Of a DNA stretch of 64,000 bases, positions 1,129-62,295 are shown piece by piece (the stretch's first letter is position 1; each line of letters begins with the position of its first letter). Under the pieces are notes generated by a model. The model was given only the letters and a program-made list of their open reading frames with translations. It was not told where the DNA came from and ran no database searches. The position numbers and the translations under genes are program-made. The DNA comes from Patescibacteria group bacterium (lineage in GTDB: Bacteria; Patescibacteriota; Minisyncoccia; UBA6257; GWB1-50-10): NCBI GenBank assembly GCA_024239035.1, contig JANBVK010000001.1, forward strand, positions 506,202 to 570,201. Reading direction: 5' to 3'.

Positions 1129-1129
1129 C

Positions 1130-1699: not shown

Positions 1700-1707
1700 C
1701 CAGCGTT

Positions 1708-1998: not shown

Positions 1999-2210
1999 AG
2001 GGCTTTGTATAAATTTTCAAGCTAAGGGCGATAAAAATTTATGTACAAAACCTTTATCCTGAGCCAGTCGAAGGATTATAATTTAAAAGGTGACTCTTCG
2101 ACTCCGCTCAGAGTGCTCAATGTTGTAGGACATTCGGCTGAGCTCAGTCGAAGCCATAAATCTTCTTCACTGCGCATTGAACTCCGTTCGAAAATTTATA
2201 CAACATTGGC
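1999..2210 (+). promoter_or_regulatory. Conserved pilus-gene leader module, copy B, upstream of pilB
   Basis: Starts AGGGCTTTGTATAAATTTT immediately after a stop codon, as copy A does. Contains the 28-mer 2123-2150, which is the exact reverse complement of 374-401. Confidence 0.5.
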
Positions 2211-3944: not shown

Positions 3945-3954
3945 TGAATACTCC

Positions 3955-6230: not shown

Positions 6231-6305
6231 ATAGATGAGATTGGCAATTATGCTATAATATTTTAAGAAAAGGTCGGCGAACGATAAATAGTTAACGAAA
6301 GTAAA

Positions 6306-6683: not shown

Positions 6684-6703
6684 CACTCGATTATATACAC
6701 GAA

Positions 6704-7144: not shown

Positions 7145-7280
7145 GGGGCTTGGTATAAATTTTCGAGGCCTACTCGATGAAAATTTATTTACCAAACCTT
7201 TACCCGCCTAAATTTTTGCGAAGTAAAAACTTGGGTGGGTGCTCAAATTTATAACTTCGCTTTACTCAGATAAATTTGGC
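7145..7280 (+). promoter_or_regulatory. Conserved pilus-gene leader module, copy C, upstream of pilD
   Basis: GGGGCTTGGTATAAATTTT after the stop, GATGAAAATTTAT, CCAAACCTTTACCC, and AAATTTGGCATG at the start codon. Confidence 0.45.
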
Positions 7281-8180: not shown

Positions 8181-8257
8181 CGTCCGAGCTTCGCTAGCTT
8201 TTTAGCTTCGCTAGCCTATTAGCTGTATAATAATAAGAGTGGCTATTTATTGGTCTA

Positions 8258-8860
8258 GTGAGTCAGGTTCTAATGAAGTTAATGAAGCTAATTAAGCTAA
8301 AAGCTAGTAACGGCTTTACGTTGGTTGAAATAATGGTGGTTATTGCGATCACCGTACTTCTCTCTAGTATAGCAATTACCTACAATCGTTCGGGAGAGCG
8401 GCAGATTGTCCTGTTCCGCGATCAGGCACTTGTTGTGGGACTTTTAAACAGGACGAAATCCCTTGCTATTCAAAAGTACCGTGATCCGGACATCTCAGGA
8501 GATTACTCGACCTGCGCCTTTGGCTTGCACTTTGAGTCGGGTTCGCGCGATTTTATTCTTTTTCAAGATTTCGGAGAGGGTGGCTGTAGTCTGGCTAATT
8601 ATGCATATGGCCCGACAGATCCTACCGCTACCCCCCCGCCACCACTCGAGGAACTGGAAAGTTTTTCTCTGGATTCTAAACTGGAGTTCTCTGGAATACC
8701 AATAGGCGGTTTGGACATTCTTTTTGTCCCCCCCGAGCTTACTGCGACGACTACACACGCGAGTGGATTTCCAGTGACTATTACTATTCAAACAGTGGGT
8801 GGTGGGTCTACTGTTCCCATCACCGTCTTTTCAATTGCCGGTCAGATTATCACGGATTAA
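8258..8860 (+). CDS. Minor pilin / pseudopilin (FimT/GspH-like)
   Basis: SNGFTLVEIMVVIAITVLLSSIAI prepilin motif. An extended -10 (TGTATAATA) lies upstream at about 8225. Confidence 0.55.
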   Translation: MSQVLMKLMKLIKLKASNGFTLVEIMVVIAITVLLSSIAITYNRSGERQIVLFRDQALVVGLLNRTKSLAIQKYRDPDISGDYSTCAFGLHFESGSRDFILFQDFGEGGCSLANYAYGPTDPTATPPPPLEELESFSLDSKLEFSGIPIGGLDILFVPPELTATTTHASGFPVTITIQTVGGGSTVPITVFSIAGQIITD

Positions 8861-8866
8861 AATTCA

Positions 8867-9379
8867 ATGAAATATTTTTTAAAAAATAGAGAAGGAAACT
8901 TGTTAATTGAATCCATGGTTGGAATCAGCATCGCGGTAGTGGGACTTTTAGGTATCTTGGGTTTACTCTCCCGGTCTTTAGCTATTAATAAGGACGTTGG
9001 TCAAAAATTTATTGCAACTTATCTGGCTGCGGAAGGTATTGAAGTAGTAAAGAGCTTGATTGATAAGGACTATGCAGACGGAAATGCGTGGAATACTACA
9101 GTAACGGGCGGCAGTCACGAGGTGAGTTATGATAGCACCGCGCTTACAACATTGGTTGGTAGTCCTAATACCTTACTTTTCGATTCAACCGACAGAACGT
9201 ATAGTTACGCGGGTGGCAACCCAACCCTTTTTACGAGAACTGTTGATATTGTGGAAATAGATAATAATGGCGACGGTGGGACTGATGAGATAAAAGTAAA
9301 TTCCATTGTCCAGTGGTTGGCACGGGGAGTTACCCAAGAAGTTAATCTTGAGGACCATTTTTTTGACTGGCGACCATGA
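8867..9379 (+). CDS. Minor pilin (PilV-like)
   Basis: N-terminus GNLLIESMVGISIAVVGLLGIL, a degenerate class III signal. Sits in the minor-pilin operon. Confidence 0.45.
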   Translation: MKYFLKNREGNLLIESMVGISIAVVGLLGILGLLSRSLAINKDVGQKFIATYLAAEGIEVVKSLIDKDYADGNAWNTTVTGGSHEVSYDSTALTTLVGSPNTLLFDSTDRTYSYAGGNPTLFTRTVDIVEIDNNGDGGTDEIKVNSIVQWLARGVTQEVNLEDHFFDWRP

Positions 9380-9939
9380 AGAAAGTAGAACTAAAAACTA
9401 GTCGGGGATTCACTTTAGTTGAATTAATTGTTGCTATGTCTATTTTTTTAATTGCTATTGTGATTATCGTCGGAGTATTTGTCCGCTCTTTAAGAACTCA
9501 GCGGATCGTGAACCACTTAATGGCTGTTAACAGCAATACCAGTTTGGTTATTGAGCAGATGGCGCGAGAGGTCAGGACTGGTTATGAATTTAGACTTAAC
9601 CCTGCGGGTAGTGCATGCGTTGGTGGACAGAGAGAAGAGCTGGAGTTTACAAACTCTAAAGGTAATAAGGTTTTCTATCATGAAGAAAGTGGCGCTATTG
9701 CGCGTGAGGAGTGTGCCGGAGGGGATTGTACAAGTTCAAGTTTTGAACCGCTGACGGCTTCTAATATAACGGTGGATCGTTTGTGTTTTTTAAATACCGG
9801 TAACCCGAATAATAATAGGGATCCATGGCGGATCACAATATTTTTAACGGTTGATTCATCCAATCCTCAGCTCGCGGGCAATATTATTAATTTTCAGACT
9901 ACGGTGGGTGCAAGAATTTTACCCGAAGATCTGGAGTAG
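9376..9939 (+). CDS. Minor pilin (PilW-like)
   Basis: SRGFTLVELIVAMSIFLIAIVII motif. ATGA overlap with the upstream gene. Confidence 0.55.
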   Translation: MKKVELKTSRGFTLVELIVAMSIFLIAIVIIVGVFVRSLRTQRIVNHLMAVNSNTSLVIEQMAREVRTGYEFRLNPAGSACVGGQREELEFTNSKGNKVFYHEESGAIAREECAGGDCTSSSFEPLTASNITVDRLCFLNTGNPNNNRDPWRITIFLTVDSSNPQLAGNIINFQTTVGARILPEDLE

Positions 9940-20571: not shown

Positions 20572-22650
20572 ATGACTTACAACTTAAAGTTTTTAATTAG
20601 GCACTTTAGATTAATTCTCTCCGTTGCCGTTTTGGTCGCGGGGATTATTTTATCTTATGTTGTATTTGCCCAAGATTTAGGTTCCGGCGAACCGACCGAT
20701 GAAGAACTCCGAGTTGCCGGCATTACGTTTCCTATTGCCGAGTTGGGTAATTGTGCGAGCAAAAGCGAATGCCACGATTACTGTAATGACACTGCGAACA
20801 TGGGTGTCTGCATTTCTTTTGCAAAAGCGCATGGCCTTATGAATGAGACAGAGGCAGCTCATGCAGAACAATTTAGAGGGCGGATGGAGTCCGAAGGTGG
20901 GCCTGGCGGATGTCGAAGTCCGGTGGATTGTGAGGCGTACTGCAGTAATATCACTCACATAGAGGAATGTATTGCCTTTGCTGATGAGCAAGGCTTTGAT
21001 GAACCTGAAATTAAGGAAGCGAGAAAGATCGCAGCTTACTTAAGAGCGGGTGGAGAGATGCCTGGCGGTTGTACCTCTGAAGCATCTTGTATGGAGTACT
21101 GTGGTGACTTCAGTCACGCTAGGGAATGTTTTGAGTTTGCGACACGTGCCGGCCTTGCACAAGAGGATGAATTCGGAGATGAAGATGATATACCTTCGCC
21201 AGAACAGTTCCAAAAGCTTATAGAATTAACAGAGCGAGGTGAGACGCCTGGAGGGTGTCAAGGAAGACTCGAATGTGAGTCGTATTGCCGAGACTCCGCG
21301 CACTTTGAGGAATGTATCGCTTTTGGTGAGAAGATGGGTTTTATTGGTCCTGAGGAGGCAGCGATGGCACGGAGGACCGGGGGAGTCGGTCCTGGTGGGT
21401 GTAACTCTCATGAGTCCTGCACGGCGTACTGTAATAATCCCGCGAATCAGGAAAGTTGTTTCAAATTTGCCGAGGATCATGGACTTATTCCCGAAGATGA
21501 GCTAAGACATGCGCGCGAAGGATTTGTAAGCTTGCGTCAGGGGCTTGAGCAAGCACCGCCAGAGGTACACGCCTGTCTGAGGTCAGTCTTAGGTCCAAAC
21601 ATTATTGAGGACATTCAGGCGCAAAGACTTACACCAGGTCCTGAGATTGGTGAGCGAGTTCGTGGCTGCTTTGAAGATTTTGGTCATCGGAATGACCCGC
21701 GCGAGGCATTCGGAGACGCGCCACCAGAGGTGATTGCTTGTCTTCAAGATAAGCTGGGGGTTAATACTTTCAGTGGTATACGTAGCGGTGAAATATTTCC
21801 GACTCCTGAGATGGGGGACGTGTTCCGCGTGTGTTTCGAGAGCGTGCGGTTTGAAGAGAAGGGATTCTTTAGTGGGTCCGATGGCCCGGGGGAGTTTGGT
21901 GGCCCCCCGCCGCAGGAAATTCGGAATTTTATAAGAAGTGCCCCACCTGAGGTTAAGGTTTGTTTGAGAGAAAAACTAGGAGGAGATCTTGAAAGATTGG
22001 GGAGCGGAGACGCGTCATTTCCTCCCGAGTTTGGGGAGTATATGCGTGGTTGCTTCGAGTCATTCGGCCCACCAGAACACGAAGGGGATGAAAGTTTCCG
22101 CCCACCCGGGTTTCAACCCGGAGTCCCTCCCTCCGATGTTTTTGAACCGCGTGTCGCGCCGCTAGATTTTAGTAATTTACCTCCGGAAGTAATTGAGTGT
22201 GTCAAATCAACGGTAGGGGTGAATCTTTTAGATACTGTGCGGGGGGAAGAACTTACTCCTGATATAGGGGAACGTGTTAAGTTATGTTTTGAGAAGCTGC
22301 AGTCAAATATTGCTCCGTTCCCGCGACCTGGTGATAGTGTAGTTTGCATTCAAGTAATTACTCCGGCCCACGATCCTGCAACAGGAGTTTGTAAGAAATT
22401 TTCCACCCCCTGTGATGTACCATCCGGTTGGCTCAGTGGTTGCCCGGTAAAGAGCGATTTATCATTACCTCCGACAACAGTAGTAGAACCTACTCCGGAA
22501 CCGACTACGATTCAGTTTGATCCGGTTGAGGAATGTACTAAATCCGGCGGCACTTTTATACTAGAGGACGGGTCGTGTGTATTATCATCTACAGAAACGG
22601 GGGGAGGAAGCCTTTTAGACGCAACAAAGAGATTTCTTTTCGGACGATGA
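20572..22650 (+). CDS. Secreted/anchored Cys-rich modular protein (5 C-x5-C-x3-C-x9,10-C modules plus 4 PPEV..C...CFE modules plus a C-terminal Cys-rich region)
   Basis: N-terminal signal/anchor, then internal tandem repeats visible in the translation. No known family recognised. Confidence 0.6.
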   Translation: MTYNLKFLIRHFRLILSVAVLVAGIILSYVVFAQDLGSGEPTDEELRVAGITFPIAELGNCASKSECHDYCNDTANMGVCISFAKAHGLMNETEAAHAEQFRGRMESEGGPGGCRSPVDCEAYCSNITHIEECIAFADEQGFDEPEIKEARKIAAYLRAGGEMPGGCTSEASCMEYCGDFSHARECFEFATRAGLAQEDEFGDEDDIPSPEQFQKLIELTERGETPGGCQGRLECESYCRDSAHFEECIAFGEKMGFIGPEEAAMARRTGGVGPGGCNSHESCTAYCNNPANQESCFKFAEDHGLIPEDELRHAREGFVSLRQGLEQAPPEVHACLRSVLGPNIIEDIQAQRLTPGPEIGERVRGCFEDFGHRNDPREAFGDAPPEVIACLQDKLGVNTFSGIRSGEIFPTPEMGDVFRVCFESVRFEEKGFFSGSDGPGEFGGPPPQEIRNFIRSAPPEVKVCLREKLGGDLERLGSGDASFPPEFGEYMRGCFESFGPPEHEGDESFRPPGFQPGVPPSDVFEPRVAPLDFSNLPPEVIECVKSTVGVNLLDTVRGEELTPDIGERVKLCFEKLQSNIAPFPRPGDSVVCIQVITPAHDPATGVCKKFSTPCDVPSGWLSGCPVKSDLSLPPTTVVEPTPEPTTIQFDPVEECTKSGGTFILEDGSCVLSSTETGGGSLLDATKRFLFGR

Positions 22651-24689: not shown

Positions 24690-25349
24690 ATGGAAAAGGT
24701 GTCTTTAAAAACAAGTGACGGAGTAGAAATTATCGGAGATTACTATACCGGGTTAGGTAGTAGAGGCGTATTACTTCTGCATATGATGCCCACAACGCGC
24801 GTTTCGTGGCGGGGTTTTGCGCCAAAACTTGTCGAGCACGGTTACCACGCACTAGCCATTGATCTTCGTGGCCATGGCGAGTCTGCCAACGGACCGGAAA
24901 ATTATAAAAGTTTCTCTGACAAAGAACATCAAGCGAGCATTCACGACGTTGAATCCGGCGTACAGTTTTTAAAAGAAAAAGGAACCGTAGATGGGGAACT
25001 TGTGATAGTAGGTGCGTCTATCGGTGCAAATCTTGCATTATGGTATGCGTCGGATCATACAGAAATAAAACAGATTGTTTTACTCTCGCCGGGTCTGAAT
25101 TACAAAGGCATAGAAACCAAGCCGCTTATCAGGCGGCTGGAAGTCGGTCAAGGGGTGTTTTTTGCCTCTTCCGAAGACGACGAGCGCTCCAACGGAATAA
25201 ACGCTGACATGAATCGTGAACTTCATAAACTGATTCCTCAAGGAGTAGAGAAAAAACTTGTTATTTACCAAGCTGTTGGTCACGGCACGGATATGTTCGG
25301 TAAGGAGAAACCAGATCTTGAATCGGAGATTCTTGAATGGATAAAGTAA
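24690..25349 (+). CDS. Alpha/beta hydrolase (dienelactone-hydrolase-like)
   Basis: Nucleophile elbow VGASIGANL, HG...HG pattern, 219 aa. Confidence 0.6.
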   Translation: MEKVSLKTSDGVEIIGDYYTGLGSRGVLLLHMMPTTRVSWRGFAPKLVEHGYHALAIDLRGHGESANGPENYKSFSDKEHQASIHDVESGVQFLKEKGTVDGELVIVGASIGANLALWYASDHTEIKQIVLLSPGLNYKGIETKPLIRRLEVGQGVFFASSEDDERSNGINADMNRELHKLIPQGVEKKLVIYQAVGHGTDMFGKEKPDLESEILEWIK

Positions 25350-44148: not shown

Positions 44149-45105
44149 TTACTGGCTCCAGTTCAGAATAATGTCGTCTATTCTGGGTGTCATACTCTGG
44201 GCAAGATTACTCTCAAGAGTGACCCTGTAGCGGAGATATCGGTTGTCTTTTATCCATTCTCTGTCGCAGCTTTTTATCTCAATTGCACTGTTGGGCCCGG
44301 GGCAAGTGGCACCAAAGAATTGGTCGGTATCTCCTTGACCATCACAGGCGATATCCGGTCCCCAAAAGCTCCAAGGTCCGCTTGAGCTGTTTGATGCTGC
44401 AATTTGGAATTTAGTGCAAGTTCCGGCTGGCTGACTACCCTGCCAGATGATGCTGTTTAGAGTTACTCCACCCGCTATCTGGGCATCAAAAATTGATGAT
44501 TCCAAGATTGCGGTGAGTTTGCCTGCTCTCCAACTTGTTTCGACTTTATAATCAGAGATGCCGCAGCCGTTGTTGTTAGCGCAGTTAAAACTAATCCAGC
44601 CCTCATCGTCGTTCCAAGCGTATCCCTGGAAGATTCCATTAGCGTCTATGGTTACCCGGTAGTTTGAACTAGAACACGTGCTTGAGGCATCCTCAACTCC
44701 TGAACCATCGCAGTCACCATCGCCGCACCAAAAACTAATCCAGCTAATTTGGTCATTCCAGGCGCAACCGGAGAGATTGCCGCTGCCGTCCGGATTTGTG
44801 ACTTGGTAATCACTGGTTGAGCAAATGTCTCCGATTGGACTTGTGGCGCAGTCAAGAGAAATTTCTTCGATTGACGAGCTGGCATAACCGACAAGTGTTG
44901 AGGTGCCGACAATAACGGTGTGGGTCTTATGAAAATCCCACCAACCGCTTATATCACTCCACGCCATGCTACTGGTGGCATTTGAGCTAATGTTAGTTCC
45001 GGGGTTACTGTCCGCCGCCGCTTTTTGGGATTGAAAAAACAAAACAATCGTGAGAGTAACAGTCATTACTACAAGGATCCAAAAAATGACTTTTGCAACT
45101 TTCAT
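44149..45105 (-). CDS. Secreted Cys-rich repeat protein (3 copies of GxAWND..xWISFxC)
   Basis: Signal/anchor VIFWILVVMTVTLTIVLFF, then repeats SGCAWNDQISWISFWC, QGYAWNDDEGWISFNC and others. Its stop is 2 nt upstream of cysS. Confidence 0.5.
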   Translation of the reverse strand: MKVAKVIFWILVVMTVTLTIVLFFQSQKAAADSNPGTNISSNATSSMAWSDISGWWDFHKTHTVIVGTSTLVGYASSSIEEISLDCATSPIGDICSTSDYQVTNPDGSGNLSGCAWNDQISWISFWCGDGDCDGSGVEDASSTCSSSNYRVTIDANGIFQGYAWNDDEGWISFNCANNNGCGISDYKVETSWRAGKLTAILESSIFDAQIAGGVTLNSIIWQGSQPAGTCTKFQIAASNSSSGPWSFWGPDIACDGQGDTDQFFGATCPGPNSAIEIKSCDREWIKDNRYLRYRVTLESNLAQSMTPRIDDIILNWSQ

Positions 45106-45167
45106 TGATTAAATTATAACAGAACTCGAATTGGGGGCATTTATGGTACTATTAAAATAAATACAGC

Positions 45168-48100
45168 ATGAAGATAAGAACCAAAAAAGCTATTATAATA
45201 GGATTTTGTTTGCTTTTCGGACTTGGATTTTTTCTCCCAGCATTCGTTTTTGCTCAAGACGCTATTTCTGCGGTGGATCCAATTTTTCCTTCTTGGATGA
45301 TTGATGAGAGCGGAACGCATTTTGAGATAAACAATAACCCCTTTCTTGACCTCACGGTTGATAGCTCGGAGAATGTCCAGCTACAAATAGAGTCGATGCC
45401 GGAGATGGTAGTGATGATAATCGAGTCGGACTCTTCCGCTATTTCAAGCCAGATAAGTGTAAAAGGTCTTGAACCATCAACTACCTACTATAAATATGAA
45501 GATAGCTACCAAAATAGCGTGACTATCGATACTAGCAGTTCAGGAACCCTTACGTTTAGTCAGGATTTGTCGGTTCCACATATTATCTTTATACAAAAGA
45601 ATAAAAGCACCAAATTCATAAGAGATGACCTAACTGGTGGCGATTGTACAACAATAGGAATTTGGGATGTGACTACAAAAACTTGTACTCTCACTACCGA
45701 TGTTTTTGAGACGATTCAGATAGATAGTAACGATATCACACTCGACGGTAACGGTCATAGTATCTTTGGGGGAGGCATAGGAGTTTTTCTAGTTAGGAAG
45801 ACCGGAGTCACTGTTGAAAATCTTAACGTCAGAGGGTTTAATTCAGGAATTCTCTTATTCAGTTCGAATTTCAATAACTTACTCAATAATTCTTTGAGAC
45901 CCAACCTTACTGGAATTTCTCTATCGGGGACTAGCAATAATAATACAATTAGTGGTAATAACGTCTCATTAGGTGAGATAGGAATTTCTCTTCTGAGAGG
46001 TACAGGTAACAATAATGTTATTAACAATACTACATCGAATAATCGAAACGGCATCTCTCTCGGTCAGTCCGATGGTAATAGTTTAATAAACAACGTTGCC
46101 AATTCGAATAGTCGTTCTGGGATTAGCCTATCCGCTTCTAAGGATAACGTTCTAACTGATAATATCGTGCAGGAGAACGGGGAGGTTGATTTGGGTTTCG
46201 GAGCAAGTCAGCTCATCGATTGTGCTAATACAATTCAAGGGACTATTGGTTCTGGCAATAAACCGTTTGAGTATTTTAATTCTGTTGTAGATTTAAACAA
46301 CAAAACTCTTTCGGGATTAATACTTTGTGATGCTGACGATTCTAAAATTAGTGGTGTAGCAGTTGCTGGTTCAGGTACTAAGAAGAATAACGGTATATCA
46401 CTCCATTTTACGGATAATTCAATTATTGAGAACACTACTTCATCGGATAATCGCCAAGGCATTTCCTTTTTTAATTCAACTAATAACATTGTTAATAACA
46501 GCACCTTCGCAGAGAATGCTCTTCGGGGAATTTTTGTTGTTTCCAGGTCACCGTCTAATGAAATTGTTAATAATAATTTCATTAATAATGCCTTTCCACC
46601 TTTTGTTCAGACGAGGAGTGAGAGCGTCTTTAATTTACCCTTACCTGTTGGCGGTAATCACTGGAGTCGTTTCGATTCTCCGGCGGAAGGATGCGGTGAT
46701 GCTGATAACAACAGTATTTGCGACGCTCCGTTCGTCTTTTCGGGAGGGCAGGATAATTTCCCATTCGTGAATCGGGATGGCTGGAAAATACCTATAGTTA
46801 GAGAGCCGGTGGTTATTGTGCCAGGGATTATAGGCACAAAACTAAATAGAGTTTTGGATGGTAAGGAAGTTTGGCCACGAGTAAATACAATGATTACTTC
46901 CAGTACCGATGACTATTTAGACGAACTCAAGCTTACTGTAAACGGTACTCAGACGACAGGAAAAGAAATGAACCCTTCTAGAGTTATTGAAGAAGAATCT
47001 GTTTTGTTTTTTAACTTTGTATTCTACAAGAACCTCATAGATAACTTCAAAAATCAAGGATACGTGGAAGGCACAACACTTTTCACGGTTCCCTACGACT
47101 GGCGACTGGATATTCAAGATGAAGTAAATAGGTTAGACAGTGTAATCCAGCAGGCAATCGCAGAGTCCCTGAACGGCAAGATAGACATTATTGCCCACAG
47201 CATGGGAGGCCTGTTGGTAAAAGAGTTATTGGCAAACGCCACAAGCACAGTTTTCGTGAATAAACTTATTCTTGCGGGAGTGCCACAACTAGGTGCATCC
47301 GGAACATTTAAAATATTAAATTTCGGTGACAACCTTGGTTTTGAACTTGGACCGATTGATATCTTGAATTCTGAACGAGTGAAAATCATTTCCCAGAACA
47401 TGCCAGGTGTGCATGAACTTCTTCCAAGCGAGCGATACGTCCAAATAAACGGTGGCTATGTAAAAGATTTTAGAAACGGAATACAGATATTGGACTTTGA
47501 TCAAACAGAACAATTTATGATTGATGACGGAAGAAACCCTCTCTTGCTTAGTGAAGCCGATGCGTTTCACCAAGGATTAGACAATCAAGCGTTCAATGCA
47601 CCCGAGGTACACAATATAATGGGGTGCCAAAATCCTGAAACAATTTTTGGATTCAATATTTATGATAACAATGTAATTGATGTAACCCGAGATCAGGGGG
47701 ATGGCACAGTGCCACTCACGAGTGCCATCAATCTTTCCGGAGATTTTACTAATTATTTTGCTCTTCACAACGAAACAAACATAGATCATCTTGATTTGAT
47801 ACGAGACAGTCGTCCGATTGATCTTATCAATGACATTATCAATGAAACAGGAGATCCTCTACCGCAAGGAATCTCAACATCCACCATTGATTGTTTTGAT
47901 ACACCTGCCGTATCCGGAAACGAAACAACCATATCTTTCAGCCTCCATAGTCCTGCACAGCTTAATGTCTTTGATTCACAAAACAATCATACGGGGTTCA
48001 ACGAAGATGGTGATATCGACTTGCAAATTCCTGGAAGCAGCTTTGAAACAATAAACGGAAACAGCTTCGCGCTTGTGCCAGCAGGCGACACCTACCGAGT

Positions 48101-48944
48101 AGAAATCCAAGCGTTATCAGAGGGTGACTTTACCTTGAAAACCAAAACCTTCAACGGCGTCGCGATTATAGACGCGGTGACTTACGTAAACATCCCGCTC
48201 CCAAGCAATCAAACTCAGGCAGAACTTACCTTTACAGACACACAAGGAAATTTGACATTGAACGTTGATAATGACGGAGATGATATTATTGATGTTACTT
48301 TCCAACCAAACGCTATACTTGACGCTACGAGTAGTTTGGATATTACGCCGCCCGATATCACCATAGTATCTATTCCACCCGAAATCCTCTTGAACACAGA
48401 CTTCGTGTTTACTTTTAATGCAACTGATGATCTCTCGGGTGTTGAGGTACTCAAAGCCACGCTTGATGGTAACCCTGTAAGCAGCGGAGATACGATTACG
48501 TTGTCAGAAGTTGGCGACCACCTTTTCAGAGTTGAGGTTACAGACAAAGCAGGCAACCCCAGAGTAGAAGAAATAGGATTTAAAGTAGTTTATGATTTTG
48601 GTGGTTTTCTTTCGCCACTGCAGAAAAAAACTCTGGTATTCCAAGCGGGACGCAGTATACCAGTGAAGTTTCAATTACGAGACGTGAATAATAGTGTTAT
48701 TTCAAACGCGAGTGCATCTCTCTTTTTCGCTTTTCTCACTAATGGGGAATCAGGCACTTTCCAACCAGCAGTATCAAAAGGAAAAGCAAATATAGAAAAT
48801 CAATTCAGATTTGATCAAGAAGAACAGCAATATGTCTATAACTTGAATACAAAATCTTTAACTCCTGGAGATTACCGCTTAAGAGTTGATTTAGATGACG
48901 AAACCTCGAAATTCATAGACGTAGAACTGCGGAGCAATAAGTAA
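45168..48944 (+). CDS. Giant secreted multidomain protein: signal peptide, parallel beta-helix repeat region, a PGAP1/LCAT-like alpha/beta-hydrolase (lipase-like) domain, and Ig-like/Big domains
   Basis: 1258 aa. N-rich beta-helix repeats (NNTISGNNVSLGEIGISL...). Nucleophile elbow IIAHSMGGLL at about aa 670. C-terminal ...ATDDLSGVEVLKATLDGNPV...VTDKAGNP Ig-like pattern. Confidence 0.7.
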   Translation: MKIRTKKAIIIGFCLLFGLGFFLPAFVFAQDAISAVDPIFPSWMIDESGTHFEINNNPFLDLTVDSSENVQLQIESMPEMVVMIIESDSSAISSQISVKGLEPSTTYYKYEDSYQNSVTIDTSSSGTLTFSQDLSVPHIIFIQKNKSTKFIRDDLTGGDCTTIGIWDVTTKTCTLTTDVFETIQIDSNDITLDGNGHSIFGGGIGVFLVRKTGVTVENLNVRGFNSGILLFSSNFNNLLNNSLRPNLTGISLSGTSNNNTISGNNVSLGEIGISLLRGTGNNNVINNTTSNNRNGISLGQSDGNSLINNVANSNSRSGISLSASKDNVLTDNIVQENGEVDLGFGASQLIDCANTIQGTIGSGNKPFEYFNSVVDLNNKTLSGLILCDADDSKISGVAVAGSGTKKNNGISLHFTDNSIIENTTSSDNRQGISFFNSTNNIVNNSTFAENALRGIFVVSRSPSNEIVNNNFINNAFPPFVQTRSESVFNLPLPVGGNHWSRFDSPAEGCGDADNNSICDAPFVFSGGQDNFPFVNRDGWKIPIVREPVVIVPGIIGTKLNRVLDGKEVWPRVNTMITSSTDDYLDELKLTVNGTQTTGKEMNPSRVIEEESVLFFNFVFYKNLIDNFKNQGYVEGTTLFTVPYDWRLDIQDEVNRLDSVIQQAIAESLNGKIDIIAHSMGGLLVKELLANATSTVFVNKLILAGVPQLGASGTFKILNFGDNLGFELGPIDILNSERVKIISQNMPGVHELLPSERYVQINGGYVKDFRNGIQILDFDQTEQFMIDDGRNPLLLSEADAFHQGLDNQAFNAPEVHNIMGCQNPETIFGFNIYDNNVIDVTRDQGDGTVPLTSAINLSGDFTNYFALHNETNIDHLDLIRDSRPIDLINDIINETGDPLPQGISTSTIDCFDTPAVSGNETTISFSLHSPAQLNVFDSQNNHTGFNEDGDIDLQIPGSSFETINGNSFALVPAGDTYRVEIQALSEGDFTLKTKTFNGVAIIDAVTYVNIPLPSNQTQAELTFTDTQGNLTLNVDNDGDDIIDVTFQPNAILDATSSLDITPPDITIVSIPPEILLNTDFVFTFNATDDLSGVEVLKATLDGNPVSSGDTITLSEVGDHLFRVEVTDKAGNPRVEEIGFKVVYDFGGFLSPLQKKTLVFQAGRSIPVKFQLRDVNNSVISNASASLFFAFLTNGESGTFQPAVSKGKANIENQFRFDQEEQQYVYNLNTKSLTPGDYRLRVDLDDETSKFIDVELRSNK

Positions 48945-49024
48945 ATAGCAGCCTTTATCTTTCTATTTGATGAGATCTCCGATGCGTTGAGATCCTTATT
49001 AGCAGCATTGAACAGATATATAAT

Positions 49025-49384
49025 ATGAAAAAATATCTTATTGATTTAGGAGTGGGGTTGCTTTGGGGTTTCGTACTTTTTTTAGGGCCTAGTTTATTTT
49101 CTGGACTGTATGGGTTTTTATTTTTTGATAAAATAGGGAATTTGTTTCCATTTCTACAAGGCAACCTTCTCTTAACTCTGTTCTCGTTAAGCCTTGTCTA
49201 TTTAATACTTTCATTACCGATTTTTATTCTTTACCTTATAACCCCCTTTTATAAGAAGAGCCATCAAGAGCCCCGCCGCCTTCTCCTCTCCCTCTTGTCC
49301 TTTTCTTTAGGGGTTTATATTGCTTTATTCTTATACGTCGGAATAGGACTGATTGGTTTCTCGAGAGGTAGTTTTATTTTGTAA
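49025..49384 (+). CDS. Hypothetical integral membrane protein (119 aa)
   Basis: Four hydrophobic helices. Preceded by the GATGAGATCTC motif. Confidence 0.35.
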   Translation: MKKYLIDLGVGLLWGFVLFLGPSLFSGLYGFLFFDKIGNLFPFLQGNLLLTLFSLSLVYLILSLPIFILYLITPFYKKSHQEPRRLLLSLLSFSLGVYIALFLYVGIGLIGFSRGSFIL

Positions 49385-49568
49385 TCTATGATTAGGTAAC
49401 GGTCAACTTACTGCACTCGCCTTTGTTCTTGATGAGATCTCTGATGTGTTGTGTTCACTATTAGAATTATTGAGGTAAATATGAATAAAAGGATATATCT
49501 ATATAGTTTTTTGTTGGGGCTTAAGGAAAGAACATATTTTTATACTTTTCTAGATCGGCTCAAGCCCA

Positions 49569-50852
49569 ATGGACCTTAACCTCAAGAGACCAAAAAATTT
49601 GTTTATTGCATTTTTGGTGATTGGCGTTCTTATTGTGGTGGGACAGCGCATCAAGATAGTTAATTTATTCAATCAAACATTCTTTTCTGAAGAAAGCTTA
49701 GTTGAGGAAATTTCTTTGAGCGGATCTCTTAGTGCATCTGTTTTGAAAAGTGAATCTTTGGGTGGAACAAACAGGAACACGCGGGGTGGGGTCGTAGTTT
49801 CGTGTTTGTCTAACGCGAAGACACCAACCCGCGACAAGGTAATCATTAACGAAGTTGCTTGGATGGGGACTACAGAAAGTTTTAGTAATGAATGGATCGA
49901 ACTGAAAAACATTTCGAATGATCCCGTCTCCATCTCCGGTTGGCAGTTTATGGATAAAGACGAACAAATAAAAATTATTTTCCCAGACTCGGCCGAAATT
50001 CCGACGAGTGGACTTTATCTTTTAGAAAGAGGTGAAGAAGCAATTGCCGGAGTCGAAGCTGACATCATCTACGCCGGTAATTTAAGAAATAGTGAAGAAG
50101 GTTTAAGATTATTTAACAATAAATGCGACTTAGTTGATGAAGTTTTAGCAAATCCTGATTGGCCGGCGGGGAATAACAAAGATAAAAGTCCCATGGAGCG
50201 GAATATTAAAGATTTTTCTTGGTACACCTCCACTATTATCGGCGGTACTCCGGGGAATGTAAATTCTCAGCCGCCCTTTAATGGATCTTTAGCTGTTTTA
50301 AATTTAGATACGGTTACAACCTTAGGCGATGACACCAAAGAGAGTGGAGAATTGGTTGAAGTTGAAGTTACTGTAATCCCGGAACAAAACTTCTCGCCTC
50401 CCCCTCCTTTCACTGGCTCGCAAGTATTAATAAGTGAAATAATGGCGGGAATTAACGGTAACGCAAAGCATGAGTTTATTGAACTTTACAATCCGGCGTC
50501 AAGTCCGGTTGATTTAAGCGGCTGGACACTGAAAAAGAAAAGTTCAACCGGAAGAGAGTCGTCTCTTGTTGTCTCGAGTCGTTTGGAAAGTAAAATTATT
50601 CCGCCCGGGAGCTATTTTCTTCTCGTAAACAGCGGAGGATGGACTGGCAGCATGATACCTGATGTGGAATGGCCCTCTTCATACAACCTTGCTTATACCA
50701 ACAATGCTATTTCCATCTACAACAAGGATGGAGAAGTAGTTGATGAAGTAAACTGGCAGGAAATCCCGAAAGGTAGGAGCTTCGAACGCCCATCTTGGGT
50801 GGACGATCAGTTTATAATTCAAATATCACCCAATCCTCAAGGTTCTAACTAG
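49569..50852 (+). CDS. Secreted protein with two lamin-tail-domain (LTD) repeats
   Basis: Repeats VIINEVAWMGT...NEWIELKNISNDPVSISGW and VLISEIMAGINGNAKHEFIELYNPASSPVDLSGW. N-terminal TM anchor. Confidence 0.6.
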   Translation: MDLNLKRPKNLFIAFLVIGVLIVVGQRIKIVNLFNQTFFSEESLVEEISLSGSLSASVLKSESLGGTNRNTRGGVVVSCLSNAKTPTRDKVIINEVAWMGTTESFSNEWIELKNISNDPVSISGWQFMDKDEQIKIIFPDSAEIPTSGLYLLERGEEAIAGVEADIIYAGNLRNSEEGLRLFNNKCDLVDEVLANPDWPAGNNKDKSPMERNIKDFSWYTSTIIGGTPGNVNSQPPFNGSLAVLNLDTVTTLGDDTKESGELVEVEVTVIPEQNFSPPPPFTGSQVLISEIMAGINGNAKHEFIELYNPASSPVDLSGWTLKKKSSTGRESSLVVSSRLESKIIPPGSYFLLVNSGGWTGSMIPDVEWPSSYNLAYTNNAISIYNKDGEVVDEVNWQEIPKGRSFERPSWVDDQFIIQISPNPQGSN

Positions 50853-58849: not shown

Positions 58850-60283
58850 GTGATTAATTTTATTAAAAAACCGATTGTTATCTTGATTGCCGTGCTGGTT
58901 ATTGTTTTTGGCGTCTATTTTCTTTTTATAAAAGACAAGAAATCTGCTCACGAGTTTGTCGTCGTTCGACGAGGTGATCTTCTGCAGGAGGTCAGTGTTA
59001 CGGGTCGGGTGAAACCTGTCGCGGACGTTGACCTCGCCTTCGAAAATAGCGGGAGGATAGCAAGGGCAAGCGTTGACATCGGTGATAAGGTATTTGCCGG
59101 TCAGGTTTTAGTTCGGTTGGACAGCTCCGAATTATCCGCCGAATTAACAAAAGCTGAATCAGATTTAGTAACCCAGGAGGCAAAATTAAGTAAGTCAGAA
59201 ACCGATTTAACTAATCTTTACGCCAGCATTATTGATATTTTAAATGACGCTTTCATCAAAGCTGATGATGCCGTCCGCGCGAAAACAGCCGCAATCTTCA
59301 GTGGTTCGAGAACGTCCGCTTATCAATTGACTTTTTCTACATGCGACGATCAGGCAAAGATAGATTCTATTAATGGGCGTCTTGTCTCTGAGAGCATTTT
59401 GGATAAATGGGAGACGGAGCTTGCCACGCTGACGAGCGAGTCGTCTGATGCTGAACGTGACCAGGCACTTAAAAACGCCAAAGGGCACCTCATAGACATT
59501 AGGGGATTCGTTGATCGATTGAACGACGTGTTGACTGATGATTGTGTGCTCGGTCAAAGCTCATTAGATATCTACCGAACCAACGTTAATAGCAGTCGAA
59601 CCAATATAAATACTGCTCTGACCAACATCAATGATCAGGAACAGAGCATTAATTCGCAGAAGGCTGCGGTTGTCTCGGAGGAGGCAACAATTAAAAGTTA
59701 TCAAGCAGCCGTTCAAACTATCAAGGCACAGCTCTCCAAAACCGTTCTTTATTCTCCCATTACCGGTGTTGTCACGGTGCAAAACGCTGAGAGAGGGGAG
59801 ATTGTAGGTGCCAACGAGGTAATAGTTTCAATTATTTCCATTACCCAACTTGAAATTGAAGCGAATATACCAGAAGCAGATATTGCGAAAGTAGAAATCG
59901 GCGATGTGGCAAAGGTAACTCTGGACGCTTACGGCAGCGACGTGATTTTTAATATAGAAGTTGCCGCCATTGATCCTGCAGAAACCATTGTTGAAGGAGT
60001 GGCAACATACAAAACTACATTTCAGTTTATAGGAGAGGACGAACGCATTAAATCAGGAATGACTGCTAACATTGACGTGTTAACCGACAAGCGCGAGAAC
60101 GTTATCACCGTTCCCCAGCGAGCAGTCATTACAAGAAGCGGAGAGAAAATAGTGAGATTGCTTCGCGATGGAATAGTTGAAGAAAGAAAAGTTATTACGG
60201 GTCTTCGCGGCTCTCTCGGGAATATAGAAATTATCGAAGGAGTGGAGAGCGGGGATAAAGTTATTATTTTTCTTCAACCTTAG
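58850..60283 (+). CDS. Efflux periplasmic adaptor (HlyD/MacA-type membrane fusion protein)
   Basis: GTG start. N-terminal TM helix, long coiled coil and beta-barrel/lipoyl motifs. Followed by an ABC ATPase and an FtsX permease. Confidence 0.7.
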   Translation: MINFIKKPIVILIAVLVIVFGVYFLFIKDKKSAHEFVVVRRGDLLQEVSVTGRVKPVADVDLAFENSGRIARASVDIGDKVFAGQVLVRLDSSELSAELTKAESDLVTQEAKLSKSETDLTNLYASIIDILNDAFIKADDAVRAKTAAIFSGSRTSAYQLTFSTCDDQAKIDSINGRLVSESILDKWETELATLTSESSDAERDQALKNAKGHLIDIRGFVDRLNDVLTDDCVLGQSSLDIYRTNVNSSRTNINTALTNINDQEQSINSQKAAVVSEEATIKSYQAAVQTIKAQLSKTVLYSPITGVVTVQNAERGEIVGANEVIVSIISITQLEIEANIPEADIAKVEIGDVAKVTLDAYGSDVIFNIEVAAIDPAETIVEGVATYKTTFQFIGEDERIKSGMTANIDVLTDKRENVITVPQRAVITRSGEKIVRLLRDGIVEERKVITGLRGSLGNIEIIEGVESGDKVIIFLQP

Positions 60284-60310
60284 TGCGCCGGGTTTTGGGA
60301 TTGTTCATAT

Positions 60311-61027
60311 ATGCATTTAATTGAGGTAAAAGATTTAGAGAAAACATATTATATTGATAGTGTTCAAACCCCGGCTCTTCGCGGGGTATCTTTTAAAATT
60401 AAAGAAGGAGAGTTTGTAGCCATAGTCGGTCCTTCGGGCTCGGGTAAATCAACCCTACTCCATGTTTTAGGGTTTTTAGACAGGCACACGGCGGGCGAGT
60501 ACCACTTTGATGGCAAAACTATTAATGATTATTCAGAAGAAGAAATTGCCCGTGTAAGGAATAAAGAGATGGGATTTATTTTCCAAACCTTTAATTTACT
60601 TCCTCGCACAACCGTTCTTGAGAACGTTAAACTTCCTCTTCTTTATTCCGGTGTTAAAGAGTCGTTGTGGGAGAAAAAAGCTCGGCAGGTTATTGATTCA
60701 GTCGGTCTTTCTCATCGGCTTCACCACGAATCTTCTCAGCTCTCAGGTGGAGAAATACAAAGAGTTGCCATTGCCCGCGCTCTTGTAAATAACCCGAGAA
60801 TTATTTTTGCTGATGAGCCTACCGGTAATCTTGATTCTAAGTCGGGGAAAGTAATCATGGAGCTTATTCAGAAACTTAATAATGACGGGCATACTGTCAT
60901 ATTAATCACGCACGAGACCTACACCGCCAAGCACGCAGAGCGTTTAATCCGCTTAAGCGATGGAGCGATAAAGGAGGACGCTCCCGTTGACCATCGTCTT
61001 GTCGCCGCTGACCACTTTACGAAATAA
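60311..61027 (+). CDS. ABC transporter ATP-binding protein (MacB/LolD type)
   Basis: Walker [10 protein letters not shown], signature LSGGEIQR, Walker B IIFADEPT. Confidence 0.9.
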
Positions 61028-61038
61028 ACGCATTTTTC

Positions 61039-62295
61039 ATGTTGATTAAATACAGCGTCAAAACAGCCCTTACGGGACTTATAACCAATAAATCCCGCTC
61101 AATTCTCACTATTCTCGGGATTGTAATAGCCATCGCTGCCATCGTGCTTATCGTTTCCATCGGCCAAGGAGCTAAGGATTTGATTTTACAACAAATCCAG
61201 GGACTTGGATCAAAAACTATAGTGGTTATTCCTGGCAGAGAGCCGGAGGGGCCCTCTGATTTTGTAAACGTATTTCTAGACTCTTTAAAAGAAAAGGATT
61301 ATAAACTTTTAAAAAATAAAAACAACGTTCCTGGCGCAGAAGACATCATGCCTTTGGTGATCAGCTCAGTTAAATTATCTTATTTTGATGAGACATACCA
61401 AGCTACAATATTGGGCGGCGGAGACGATGAAATAAACAATCTGATGGCCAGAATATTTGATATTTTTCCTGATCGTGGGTCTTTCTTCACGCCGCAAGAC
61501 GTTTCTTCAAGAGCAAGCGTTATTGTTATAGGCGACAATGTCCGTGAGGAACTTTTTGGAGAAAGCATTAATCCTTTGGGGGAGAAGATAAAAATCAATG
61601 GACGCAATTTTAGGGTTATTGGCATTTTACCTTCAAAGGGGCAAGTTTCTTTTTTTAACTTTGATGATATGGTGTTAGCTCCGTACACTACAGCTCAGCA
61701 GTACATATTGGGGCGAAAATATTTTGACCGCATTATTGTTGTGGCAAAATCAGAAAAAGTCATTGCGAGAACGGTTAGCGACATAGAGATTACTTTGCGA
61801 AGTTCTCATGGTATAACTGATCCAGATAAAGATGATTTTTTTGTTGAAACTCAAGCGGATCTGGTTGAGCGTGTAGGTTTTATTACAAATATTTTAACTT
61901 TGTTTTTAGTAACTATTGCTGCCATATCTTTACTTGTTGGCGGAATAGGAATTATGAATATAATGTTGGTTTCCGTTACCGAAAGAACTAAAGAGATAGG
62001 TCTTCGTAAGGCGGTGGGAGCGACAAACAAAGACATACTAAGACAATTTTTATTAGAATCGGTTTTACTCACCGCGATCGGCGGGATAGTAGGAATTGCA
62101 CTTGGGGTAGCGCTCTCTTTTGTTGTCTCTTTAATATTAACTTACTCTCTGGGTCTAAACTGGGAATTTACTTTTCCTCTATCGGCGGCTGCTCTAGGGT
62201 TAGGAGTTTCCGCCGCGGTGGGGCTTGTGTTTGGAATCTATCCTGCAAGGCAAGCCGCTAAGAAAACCCCAATAGATGCTCTGCGGTATGAATAA
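61039..62295 (+). CDS. ABC transporter permease, FtsX/MacB type
   Basis: N-terminal TM, large periplasmic MacB_PCD-like domain, C-terminal 3-TM FtsX domain. Confidence 0.85.
   Translation: MLIKYSVKTALTGLITNKSRSILTILGIVIAIAAIVLIVSIGQGAKDLILQQIQGLGSKTIVVIPGREPEGPSDFVNVFLDSLKEKDYKLLKNKNNVPGAEDIMPLVISSVKLSYFDETYQATILGGGDDEINNLMARIFDIFPDRGSFFTPQDVSSRASVIVIGDNVREELFGESINPLGEKIKINGRNFRVIGILPSKGQVSFFNFDDMVLAPYTTAQQYILGRKYFDRIIVVAKSEKVIARTVSDIEITLRSSHGITDPDKDDFFVETQADLVERVGFITNILTLFLVTIAAISLLVGGIGIMNIMLVSVTERTKEIGLRKAVGATNKDILRQFLLESVLLTAIGGIVGIALGVALSFVVSLILTYSLGLNWEFTFPLSAAALGLGVSAAVGLVFGIYPARQAAKKTPIDALRYE

What the first reader, a model, noticed from the sequence alone, without database searches (positions are those of the whole stretch)
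45168..48944. 1258-aa exported protein combining a beta-helix region, a PGAP1/LCAT-like lipase domain and Ig-like domains
The protein has a signal peptide. Next comes about 330 aa of Asn-rich parallel beta-helix repeats (NNxISGNNVSLG...GISL). A central alpha/beta-hydrolase domain follows, with the nucleophile elbow IIAHSMGGLL and the upstream PGIIGTKLNR segment typical of PGAP1/LCAT-type lipases. The C-terminal half holds Ig-like/Big domains (...ATDDLSGVEV...VTDKAGNP...). A surface-exposed lipase on an adhesin-like scaffold fits a membrane-attacking or lipid-scavenging function in an organism that cannot make its own lipids. Its gene is transcribed divergently from the WISF-repeat protein and sits in a block of secreted proteins (44149-50852).
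Basis: partly seen in the sequence, partly recalled or inferred. Interest (0 to 1): 0.65.

Follow-up and report, generated by a model that had tools for sequence, protein, structure and literature searches.

The report
Exported LCAT-type phospholipase of an ultrasmall bacterium
This gene from a tiny, host-dependent (Patescibacteria/CPR) bacterium encodes a large exported protein whose core is a phospholipase of the same family as human LCAT and lysosomal phospholipase A2, and it is followed by a small membrane-protein gene in a pairing that recurs in these bacteria, which makes the pair a testable candidate for how they attack or harvest other cells' membrane lipids.

Summary
ORF 45168-48944 (+) encodes a 1258-aa protein. 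It has one N-terminal signal-like hydrophobic segment, a NosD-type Asn-rich beta-helix, an alpha/beta-hydrolase domain and C-terminal beta-sandwich domains.

The organism is a Patescibacterium. The family is large (673 representatives at E<=1e-30) and uncharacterised.

There are two additions. The same beta-helix scaffold carries NlpC/P60, C39-like or M6-like hydrolases in related proteins. LCAT-like genes in Patescibacteria are also followed by a small 3-4-TM protein gene: 24/80 against 4/506 controls, and 6/6 in the reverse test. The window's own copy is the uncalled ORF 49025-49384.

The best reading is an exported phospholipase A or transacylase that acts on foreign membranes. Activity, substrate and the partner's role are untested. 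It is a new variant of a known kind.

The parts
45168..48944 (+). Gene for the 1258-aa exported multidomain protein (beta-helix, LCAT-like lipase, beta-sandwiches, PxKF)
   Evidence: ORF list and translation. A 100% identical protein, P0001, lies on a 729-kb scaffold.
45168..45254 (+). Signal peptide, aa 1-29 (MKIRTKK, hydrophobic core, VFA|QD). The alternative TTG start at codon 15 was used by the source annotation.
   Evidence: It is the only hydropathy peak in the protein. The sequence was read directly. Cleavage is inferred and no predictor was run.
45258..45677 (+). N-terminal conserved domain, aa 31-170. It has no Pfam match and precedes the beta-helix in the whole family.
   Evidence: No Pfam hit. 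The family consensus is strongly conserved here (HFEITDSEYLNI...TTYHKY...). It was not modelled.
45678..46802 (+). Asn-rich right-handed parallel beta-helix (NosD/CASH type), aa 171-545. It ends with the NosD-like GGN.W...C.D..N..CD motif.
   Evidence: Pfam NosD 4.8e-26 and Beta_helix 4.6e-20. TIGR04247 and TIGR03804 hits. The family profile matches NosD 7o0y at 2.2e-19. Asn is 16%.
46803..47882 (+). LCAT/LPLA2-type alpha/beta-hydrolase (phospholipase/transacylase) domain, aa 546-905. It has the PG(I) oxyanion-region motif, PYDWR and AHS678MGG.
47199..47201 (+). Codon of the nucleophile Ser678
   Evidence: Invariant in 33 homologues and 143/143 in diverse representatives. It aligns with LPLA2 Ser165.
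47700..47702 (+). Codon of the triad Asp845 (GDGTV)
   Evidence: 147/147 conserved. It aligns with LPLA2 Asp327.
47787..47789 (+). Codon of the triad His874 (IDHLD)
   Evidence: 131/146 conserved. It aligns with LPLA2 His359.
47907..48299 (+). Beta-sandwich domain, aa 914-1044 (LHSP...GNHTG motif), that always travels with the hydrolase
   Evidence: Model pLDDT >90. In the exhaustive search most relatives match the full span 546-1060. Conserved motifs are seen.
48342..48593 (+). Ig/PKD-like domain, aa 1059-1142
48603..48932 (+). C-terminal PxKF ('rightmost') domain, aa 1146-1255, of unknown function
   Evidence: NCBIfam NF038114 scores 56.9 bits against a cutoff of 35. The PVKF motif is at 1165-1168. 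The model is low-confidence here.
49025..49384 (+). Candidate partner gene: a 119-aa, roughly 3-TM membrane protein 80 nt downstream, not called in the source annotation
   Evidence: ORF and sequence. Only 8/2000 shuffles of the gap give an ORF this long. Its N-terminus is 42% identical (E=1e-7) to the ORF in the same position in L001, a 57% GC genome. Small TM ORFs lie in the same position next to relatives. Membership of the main partner family was not shown.
48967..48989 (+). First copy of the 23-nt direct repeat TTGATGAGATCTCYGATGYGTTG, 23 nt after the lipase stop codon
   Evidence: Two copies in the window against 0 expected. Function unknown.
49429..49451 (+). Second copy of the 23-nt repeat, 45 nt after the stop of the small ORF

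Best explanation
The gene encodes a Sec-exported, extracellular or cell-surface phospholipase A / transacylase of the LCAT/LPLA2 family from a Patescibacteria (CPR) bacterium.

Proposed mechanism. The signal peptide is cleaved after export. The N-terminal domain, the NosD-type beta-helix and the C-terminal Ig-like and PxKF domains act as a stalk or targeting scaffold, probably binding envelope glycans or surface structures. The LCAT-like domain docks on a phospholipid membrane through the family-specific membrane-binding and cap subdomains. Ser678, activated by His874 and Asp845, attacks an acyl ester of a glycerophospholipid and releases a lysophospholipid. The acyl-enzyme is then resolved by water, giving a free fatty acid, or by a lipid alcohol, giving transacylation.

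The target is most likely the membrane of a host or neighbouring cell. The outcome would be membrane damage plus release of lysolipids and fatty acids that a lipid-auxotrophic epibiont can take up. The small polytopic membrane protein encoded just downstream is a dedicated partner, most likely self-protection (immunity) or a membrane dock or acceptor.

Shown: domain identities, the fold, the triad and its conservation, the family distribution, and the gene pairing in relatives. Inferred: export and cleavage, substrate, target cell, hydrolysis versus transfer, and the roles of the scaffold and the partner.

For: Active site: Ser678, Asp845 and His874 align with LPLA2 Ser165, Asp327 and His359 (triad from PMC6027918). 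Conservation is 143/143, 147/147 and 131/146 across representatives that are at most 50% identical to each other. Y, D, W and R of the PYDWR motif are each conserved in at least 140/141.

Location: a single N-terminal signal-like segment and no other TM segment.

Organism and need: the homologues are Patescibacteria. The literature reports missing lipid synthesis, lysolipid enrichment and no identified lipid-acquisition mechanism (PMC7242380; PMC11665869; PMC8080830).

Envelope-attack toolbox: the same beta-helix scaffold is fused to NlpC/P60, Peptidase_C39_2 or M6-like domains in related proteins.

Partner: 24/80 LCAT-like genes have a small ORF with at least 2 TM segments downstream, against 4/506 controls. 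In the reverse test 6/6 members lie downstream of an LCAT-domain gene, with the preceding gene overlapping by 4 nt or ending 1 nt before. The three closest relatives of the window protein that were examined all have such an ORF.
Against: There is no biochemical evidence for any member of this bacterial clade. Alpha/beta hydrolases change substrate easily.

The lid-loop disulfide of LCAT cannot exist here, because the domain has only one Cys, so regulation differs.

Surface retention is unexplained: there is no LPxTG motif and no C-terminal TM segment.

The host or target is unknown, and nothing in the sequence shows that the substrate is foreign rather than self membrane.

Lipid auxotrophy of this particular genome was not tested; only 64 of 729 kb were seen.

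The window's own small ORF was not called by the source annotation. It has no database hits and only weak similarity to its positional counterparts (E=1e-7 over 43 aa, E=0.013, and not significant).

Model coordinates could not be inspected, so triad geometry rests on alignment and superposition scores rather than measured distances.
Confidence: 0.55

Rival explanations
1. It is an interbacterial toxin with an immunity protein, used for competition or killing rather than nutrition. The exported LCAT/Tle4-like phospholipase destroys the membranes of target bacteria, and the small downstream membrane protein is the cognate immunity factor protecting the producer. This parallels Tle-Tli pairs of the T6SS but with Sec export.
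Against: There is no T6SS or T7SS or any other delivery system. The partner is not homologous to Tli4 and has no known immunity fold. It is not clearly distinct from the main explanation, because killing and feeding can be the same act for an epibiotic parasite.
Confidence: 0.2
2. It is a self-directed lipid-remodelling enzyme. The enzyme works on the producer's own outer leaflet or on scavenged lipids as an LCAT-like transacylase. It generates or re-acylates lysolipids to build and shape the cell's highly curved membrane, with the small membrane protein acting as its dock or acceptor-presenting partner.
For: LCAT and LPLA2 are transacylases as well as lipases (PMC6027918). Lysolipids are enriched in CPR cells (PMC7242380). 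The partner is an integral membrane protein of the producer.
Against: A 375-aa beta-helix plus several Ig-like domains would hold the catalytic domain far from the producer's own membrane. Sibling proteins on the same scaffold carry peptidoglycan and protein hydrolases, which suggests outward-directed attack. A close fold relative, Tle4, is a toxin.
Confidence: 0.15
3. It is a surface glycan-directed enzyme or adhesin with an accessory esterase. The beta-helix is the functional core (polysaccharide binding, lyase or epimerase), and the alpha/beta hydrolase removes acyl or acetyl groups from envelope polymers or lipoproteins rather than from phospholipids.
Confidence: 0.07

Closest known systems
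Human lysosomal phospholipase A2 (LPLA2/PLA2G15; PDB 4x90) and LCAT (4xx1, 5txf), Pfam PF02450
   Different: Sequence identity is only 17-19%. The lid disulfide is impossible because the domain has a single Cys. The position after the N-terminal 'PG' is Ile instead of LPLA2 Asp13 or LCAT Cys31; this correspondence rests on my recalled LPLA2 sequence plus PMC6027918 and suggests no acidic pH optimum. The domain is embedded in a 1258-aa bacterial exported protein between a beta-helix and beta-sandwich domains. Activity is untested.
Tle4/TplE (PA1510), T6SS antibacterial phospholipase of Pseudomonas aeruginosa (PDB 4r1d, Tle4-Tli4 complex)
   Different: Tle4 is delivered by a T6SS, whereas the window protein has a Sec signal peptide and CPR bacteria are not known to have a T6SS (none in the window). 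Tli4 is not a small polytopic membrane protein and is unrelated to the partner ORFs found here.
NosD (PDB 7o0y), periplasmic beta-helix of the NosDFY nitrous-oxide-reductase maturation system
   Same: Beta-helix repeats and the C-terminal GNYW...D.NNDG..D motif match (Pfam 4.8e-26; family profile 2.2e-19).
   Different: There are no nosZ, nosF or nosY genes nearby. NCBIfam NosD scores 62.9 bits against a cutoff of 300. Here the helix is an N-terminal scaffold shared by proteins with various hydrolase payloads.
Secreted LCAT-family phospholipases of apicomplexan parasites (Toxoplasma TgLCAT, Plasmodium PbPL)
   Same: They are LCAT-family enzymes secreted by obligate parasites, and their catalytic activity helps breach host-derived membranes (PMC5830472).
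   Different: They are eukaryotic, with a different architecture and no beta-helix or small partner gene. The relationship is at domain-family level only.
Putative secreted phospholipase of the CPR predator Vampirococcus lugosii (Vamp_34_196)
   Same: The same functional proposal was made for it: disrupting the host membrane and supplying phospholipids to a lipid-auxotrophic CPR bacterium (PMC8080830).
   Different: Its family was not compared here, so whether it is LCAT-like is unknown. That paper describes no beta-helix fusion or partner gene.

Membership tests
LCAT/LPLA2 family (Pfam PF02450) | Sequence match to the family model above the curated threshold | tested here: met
   73.7 bits against a cutoff of 21, E=2.2e-20, aa 566-755. 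Precomputed PF02450 is also present on 49 of the 120 listed homologues (my hand count from the table).
LCAT/LPLA2 family (Pfam PF02450) | Ser-Asp-His triad in the family motifs (A/G-H-S-x-G nucleophile elbow, G-D-x-T-V Asp, C-terminal His) | tested here: met
   Ser678, Asp845 and His874 align with LPLA2 S165, D327 and H359. They are conserved 143/143, 147/147 and 131/146.
LCAT/LPLA2 family (Pfam PF02450) | Alpha/beta-hydrolase core plus the family-specific membrane-binding and cap subdomains | tested here: met
LCAT/LPLA2 family (Pfam PF02450) | Lid-loop disulfide of the vertebrate enzymes | tested here: not met
   There is only one Cys (C820) in aa 546-900. This feature belongs to the vertebrate enzymes (from my own knowledge) and not to the Pfam family as a whole.
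LCAT/LPLA2 family (Pfam PF02450) | Phospholipase A and/or acyltransferase activity on glycerophospholipids | not testable with these tools
   This needs a biochemical assay.
PGAP1-like (PF07819) | Match to the family model above threshold | tested here: not met
   E=0.022, 14.9 bits against a cutoff of 24.3, covering only the nucleophile-elbow region 664-714.
Tle4-type T6SS lipase effector | Fold similarity to Tle4 | tested here: met
Tle4-type T6SS lipase effector | Association with T6SS genes (VgrG/Hcp/PAAR) and absence of a Sec signal | tested here: not met
   An N-terminal signal peptide is present. No T6SS domains were found among the window ORFs scanned or in the homologue loci.
Tle4-type T6SS lipase effector | Adjacent cognate immunity gene of the Tli4 type | tested here: not met
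   The adjacent small ORF is a polytopic membrane protein with no Pfam family. It is analogous in position only.
NosD (N2O-reductase maturation) | Full-length match to the NosD equivalog and a nosZ/nosDFY operon context | tested here: not met
   TIGR04247 scores 62.9 bits against a cutoff of 300. There are no nos genes in the window.
PxKF ('rightmost') C-terminal domain proteins (NCBIfam NF038114) | Match above the curated cutoff, located at the extreme C-terminus | tested here: met
   56.9 bits against a cutoff of 35, aa 1146-1255 of 1258, covering the full model 2-113/113. PVKF is at 1165-1168. No function is known, and there was no relevant literature hit.
Type Va autotransporter with a beta-helical passenger | C-terminal outer-membrane beta-barrel translocator | tested here: not met
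   There is no autotransporter domain in Pfam or NCBIfam. The C-terminus is made of Ig-like and PxKF domains.

The most novel reading that the evidence does not exclude
The LCAT-like module and its small polytopic membrane partner form a dedicated two-gene lipid-acquisition cassette of Patescibacteria. The exported enzyme strips acyl chains or lysolipids from a host membrane. The partner either shields the producer's own scavenged membrane or receives the product for incorporation. Either way, this would be the missing mechanism by which lipid-auxotrophic CPR bacteria obtain their membranes.
Probability: 0.2. Interest if true: 0.85.

Novelty: new variant of a known kind. Interest (0 to 1): 0.55.

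Why it matters
Patescibacteria are a large part of bacterial diversity, generally lack fatty-acid and phospholipid synthesis, and are enriched in lysolipids. [quoted passage not shown]

This gene belongs to a large, uncharacterised and catalytically conserved family of exported LCAT/LPLA2-type enzymes in these bacteria. Homologues are also present in Saccharibacteria, the only cultivable and genetically tractable group.

The family therefore offers a concrete enzyme plus partner gene to test for host-membrane attack and lipid harvesting. It also points to a modular "beta-helix scaffold plus envelope-degrading payload" design on CPR cell surfaces.

If the enzyme proves to be an ordinary secreted esterase, the finding reduces to routine domain annotation of a hypothetical protein.

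Tried and rejected
1. PGAP1 membership was rejected because the hit is sub-threshold.

2. A functional NosD was rejected: there is no nos context and the score is far below the equivalog cutoff.

3. A conserved 'secreted block', or linkage to type IV pili or secretion genes, was rejected. The flanks of homologues are unrelated housekeeping genes. The WISF and LTD neighbours hit only the window's own locus. The pilus cluster is about 35 kb away.

4. No paralogues of any domain were found elsewhere in the window.

5. No sortase (LPxTG) or C-terminal TM anchor was found.

6. A database search with the window's 119-aa ORF gave nothing, not even a self-hit, because the source did not call it as a gene. 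Its homology to the main partner family could not be shown, and its similarity to the partner of P0002 is not significant.

7. The PxKF domain could not be modelled (pLDDT 25-48), and the literature holds nothing relevant.

8. Literature searches for LCAT-like enzymes in Patescibacteria, Parcubacteria or Saccharibacteria found no description of this family. These searches cover open-access text only.

9. Promoter and terminator scans around the gene were no better than shuffled controls.

10. Rfam found only tRNAs in the window.

11. Triad geometry could not be measured because model coordinates are not exposed to the scripting tool.
Full report
**1. Observation**

The window carries an uninterrupted ORF at 45168-48944 (+) of 1258 codons.

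The only strongly hydrophobic segment lies at residues 5-29. It is preceded by MKIRTKK and followed by VFA|QD, which is the layout of a Sec signal peptide. There is no second TM segment, no lipobox and no LPxTG motif. The source annotation starts the protein at a TTG 14 codons downstream (1244 aa), probably because of an AGGA just upstream of it. I prefer the ATG start because it restores the charged n-region, but this is not proven.

**2. Domain anatomy**

- Beta-helix. Pfam and NCBIfam give a NosD/right-handed beta-helix over roughly 171-545 (NosD 4.8e-26, Beta_helix 4.6e-20, TIGR03804 repeats).
- Hydrolase. The LCAT hit (PF02450) at 566-755 scores 73.7 bits against a cutoff of 21.
- C-terminus. 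A PxKF 'rightmost' domain at 1146-1255 scores 56.9 bits against a cutoff of 35.
- PGAP1 and a dozen generic alpha/beta-hydrolase models match only the nucleophile elbow, below threshold.
- Residues 31-170 have no Pfam match but are strongly conserved in the family.

**3. The hydrolase domain**

An AlphaFold2 model of residues 533-1000, built on a 33-sequence alignment, is confident (pLDDT 87, pTM 0.86).

A profile of the family aligns its H-S-x-G-G serine, its G-D-x-T-V aspartate and a C-terminal histidine with LPLA2 chain positions 166, 328 and 360. These are Ser165, Asp327 and His359 of the published triad. The second alignment segment is weak on its own but agrees with the structural superposition.

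In the window protein these residues are Ser678, Asp845 and His874. Across 147 representatives that are at most 50% identical to one another, they are conserved 143/143, 147/147 and 131/146. At each checked position of the PYDWR motif (Y, D, W, R) conservation is at least 140/141. The enzymes are therefore under selection to stay catalytically competent.

There are two differences from the vertebrate enzymes. Only one cysteine occurs in the domain, so the lid disulfide cannot exist. The residue after the N-terminal 'PG' is Ile (128/139 in the family) rather than LPLA2's Asp13, which that paper links to the acidic pH optimum. This correspondence rests on my recollection of the LPLA2 N-terminus, so it is an inference.

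**4. The rest of the protein**

A model of residues 895-1258 shows three regions:
- a high-confidence beta-sandwich at 914-1044 (pLDDT >90);
- a moderately confident Ig-like domain at 1059-1142;
- an unresolved PxKF domain.

**5. Organism and family**

The identical protein lies on a 729,382-bp metagenomic scaffold. Every homologue whose source name gives a lineage is from Patescibacteria (Colwell-, Moran-, Jacksonbacteria, Paceibacterota, the Parcubacteria group), apart from a few beta-helix-only hits assigned to Bacteroidota and Nitrospirota. The usual annotations are 'NosD domain-containing' or 'cell surface protein'.

The window itself has housekeeping genes, nine tRNAs, a type IV pilus cluster (about 541-9939) and no lipid-synthesis genes.

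The hydrolase plus sandwich module has 673 representatives at E<=1e-30 and 2,826 at E<=1e-10 in a library of 1.84 billion proteins. More distant LCAT-like domains occur in Saccharibacteria and in non-CPR bacteria such as Streptomyces, Nocardia and Steroidobacteraceae.

The module's position within its protein ranges from residue 1 to beyond 1000. The N-terminal scaffold may be a NosD helix, another beta-helix type, DUF5018 or nothing. Conversely, the NosD-type scaffold of the window protein is found fused to NlpC/P60, Peptidase_C39_2 or M6-like domains in related proteins. The picture is a modular set of exported proteins in which a common stalk carries exchangeable envelope-degrading payloads.

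**6. Neighbourhood**

The 318-aa W/C-rich repeat protein, the lipase, a 119-aa hydrophobic ORF and a double lamin-tail-domain protein all begin with hydrophobic segments.

It is not a conserved unit, however. Homologue loci are flanked by unrelated housekeeping genes, and the WISF and LTD proteins have no counterparts there.

One neighbour does recur. A small ORF (114-131 aa, no Pfam family) lies directly downstream in 4 of 4 homologue loci first examined.

- Forward census. Across all fetched loci, 24 of 80 complete LCAT-like genes are followed on the same strand by an ORF of at most 170 aa with at least 2 TM segments. Among other genes of at least 300 aa in the same loci the figure is 4 of 506. 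The positives are almost all Patescibacteria from several classes, including proteins without a beta-helix.
- The partner family. Fourteen of the small proteins form one family with four TM segments, a Cys-containing loop, an F-x-x-W-x-K/R-F motif and a basic C-terminus. A profile search finds 107 members, all hypothetical, with no Pfam family beyond weak DUF202 hits.
- Reverse test. In six of six members on long contigs that were not used to build the profile, the small gene lies downstream of a PF02450 gene, and the preceding gene either overlaps it by 4 nt or ends 1 nt before it. In one locus the LCAT gene appears split and a 215-aa ORF intervenes.

**7. The window's own partner candidate**

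The window's candidate partner, ORF 49025-49384, is weaker evidence.
- The source annotation did not call it, and it has no database hits.
- An ORF of 119 codons is unlikely by chance in that 624-nt gap (8/2000 shuffles).
- Its first 43 residues are 42% identical (E=1e-7) to the ORF in the same position in L001, a genome with 57% GC.
- The closest relative of the hydrolase module (P0121, 64% identity) is followed 12-24 nt later by a 107-111-aa three-TM ORF of marginal similarity (E=0.013).

I treat it as a probable gene and a probable partner of a second, fast-diverging type.

**8. Mechanism**

Shown:
- an exported-type N-terminus;
- an LCAT/LPLA2 fold with an intact, conserved triad;
- a patescibacterial host;
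- modular scaffolds;
- a conserved small membrane partner.

Inferred from family knowledge: LCAT-family enzymes bind membranes interfacially, form an acyl-serine intermediate from a glycerophospholipid, and pass the acyl chain to water or to a lipid alcohol (PMC6027918). Members of the family and its close fold relatives are used to breach foreign membranes (Tle4; Toxoplasma LCAT, PMC5830472).

Patescibacteria generally lack lipid synthesis, are enriched in lysolipids and have no identified lipid-acquisition machinery (PMC7242380, PMC11665869). A secreted phospholipase of another CPR bacterium has been proposed to damage the host membrane and supply lipids (PMC8080830).

The most likely function is therefore an exported phospholipase A or transacylase acting on the membranes of host or neighbouring cells. 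The beta-helix and Ig-like domains would serve as stalk or targeting modules. The small membrane protein would serve as self-protection or as a membrane dock or acceptor.

The rivals are listed with their tests: a pure toxin-immunity pair, self-directed lipid remodelling, and a glycan-directed enzyme with an accessory esterase.

**9. Novelty and score**

The domain family, the fold and the functional idea are all known, so this is not categorically new. I found no description of the following in the searchable literature:
- the large patescibacterial clade of LCAT/LPLA2-type exported enzymes;
- its presentation on a beta-helix scaffold shared with other envelope hydrolases;
- the tight pairing with a family of small polytopic membrane proteins.

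I rate it a new variant of a known kind, with interest 0.55. It would not astonish a specialist, but it makes an explicitly open question, how CPR bacteria obtain lipids, directly testable with a defined enzyme and partner.

Noticed in passing
window 49025-49384 (+); L082 11393-11737; L083 10957-11340; L084 11290-11667; L085 11267-11662; L086-L090 5501-59xx; L091 3009-3344: A small (about 105-155 aa) 3-4-TM protein gene lies directly downstream of LCAT-like lipase genes across Patescibacteria: 24/80 against 4/506 controls, and 6/6 in the reverse test. It often overlaps the preceding gene by 4 nt. The main family has 107 database members, all hypothetical. The window's copy is a divergent type and is not annotated in the source.
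   Followed up: yes
window 48967-48989 and 49429-49451 (+): A 23-nt direct repeat, TTGATGAGATCTCYGATGYGTTG, brackets the small ORF. One copy lies 23 nt after the lipase stop codon and the other 45 nt after the small ORF's stop, and each is roughly 35-50 nt upstream of an ATG. There are two copies in 64 kb against 0 expected. It contains the palindrome GAGATCTC. It could be an operator or promoter element or a duplication scar.
   Followed up: partly
P0060, P0091, P0109, P0085 and others among the homologues: The same N-terminal domain plus NosD-type beta-helix scaffold is fused to NlpC/P60, Peptidase_C39_2/C39 or M6-like protease domains instead of the lipase. This suggests a modular family of exported envelope-degrading enzymes in Patescibacteria.
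   Followed up: partly
window 45168 versus 45210: The source annotation starts the lipase gene at TTG codon 15 (1244 aa), after an AGGA motif. That start would remove the basic n-region of the signal peptide. The ATG at 45168 gives a canonical signal peptide.
   Followed up: partly
window 44149-45105 (-): A 318-aa protein with an N-terminal TM or signal segment and W/C-rich repeats (WSDISGWWDF, CAWNDQISWISFWC, YAWNDDEGWISFNC), transcribed divergently from the lipase gene. It has no Pfam match and is not found next to the lipase homologues.
   Followed up: partly
window 49569-50852 (+): A 427-aa protein with an N-terminal TM segment and two lamin-tail (LTD, PF00932) domains. It is not conserved next to the lipase homologues.
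   Followed up: no
window 541-9939 (+): A type IV pilus cluster with PilO-like, PilB (T2SSE + MshEN), PilT-like, PilC (T2SSF), prepilin peptidase (A24) and at least two N-methyl pilins. It is typical of Patescibacteria and lies about 35 kb from the lipase gene.
   Followed up: no
window 58850-62295 (+): A MacAB-like three-gene set: a HlyD-family membrane-fusion protein, an ABC ATPase and a MacB/FtsX permease. The substrate is unknown. Whether it could handle lipids or lipopeptides was not examined.
   Followed up: no
window 20572-22650 (+): A 692-aa ORF with no Pfam match, in a stretch of raised GC (0.49 against about 0.43).
   Followed up: no
window 24690-25349 (+): A second, small (219 aa) alpha/beta hydrolase (Abhydrolase_1/DLH-like), unrelated to the LCAT-like domain.
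   Followed up: no
L087, L089 and the JGI 3300050046 locus: Three independent loci share the local gene order ArgRS, PIF1-like helicase, LCAT-like lipase, small TM protein, then IleRS a few genes further on. This is lineage-level synteny around the pair.
   Followed up: no
L086 3307-5504: In one Kaiserbacteria-like contig the LCAT-like gene appears split into a 497-aa ORF and a 215-aa ORF ahead of the small partner gene. This could be a frameshift or pseudogene, or a genuine split.
   Followed up: no
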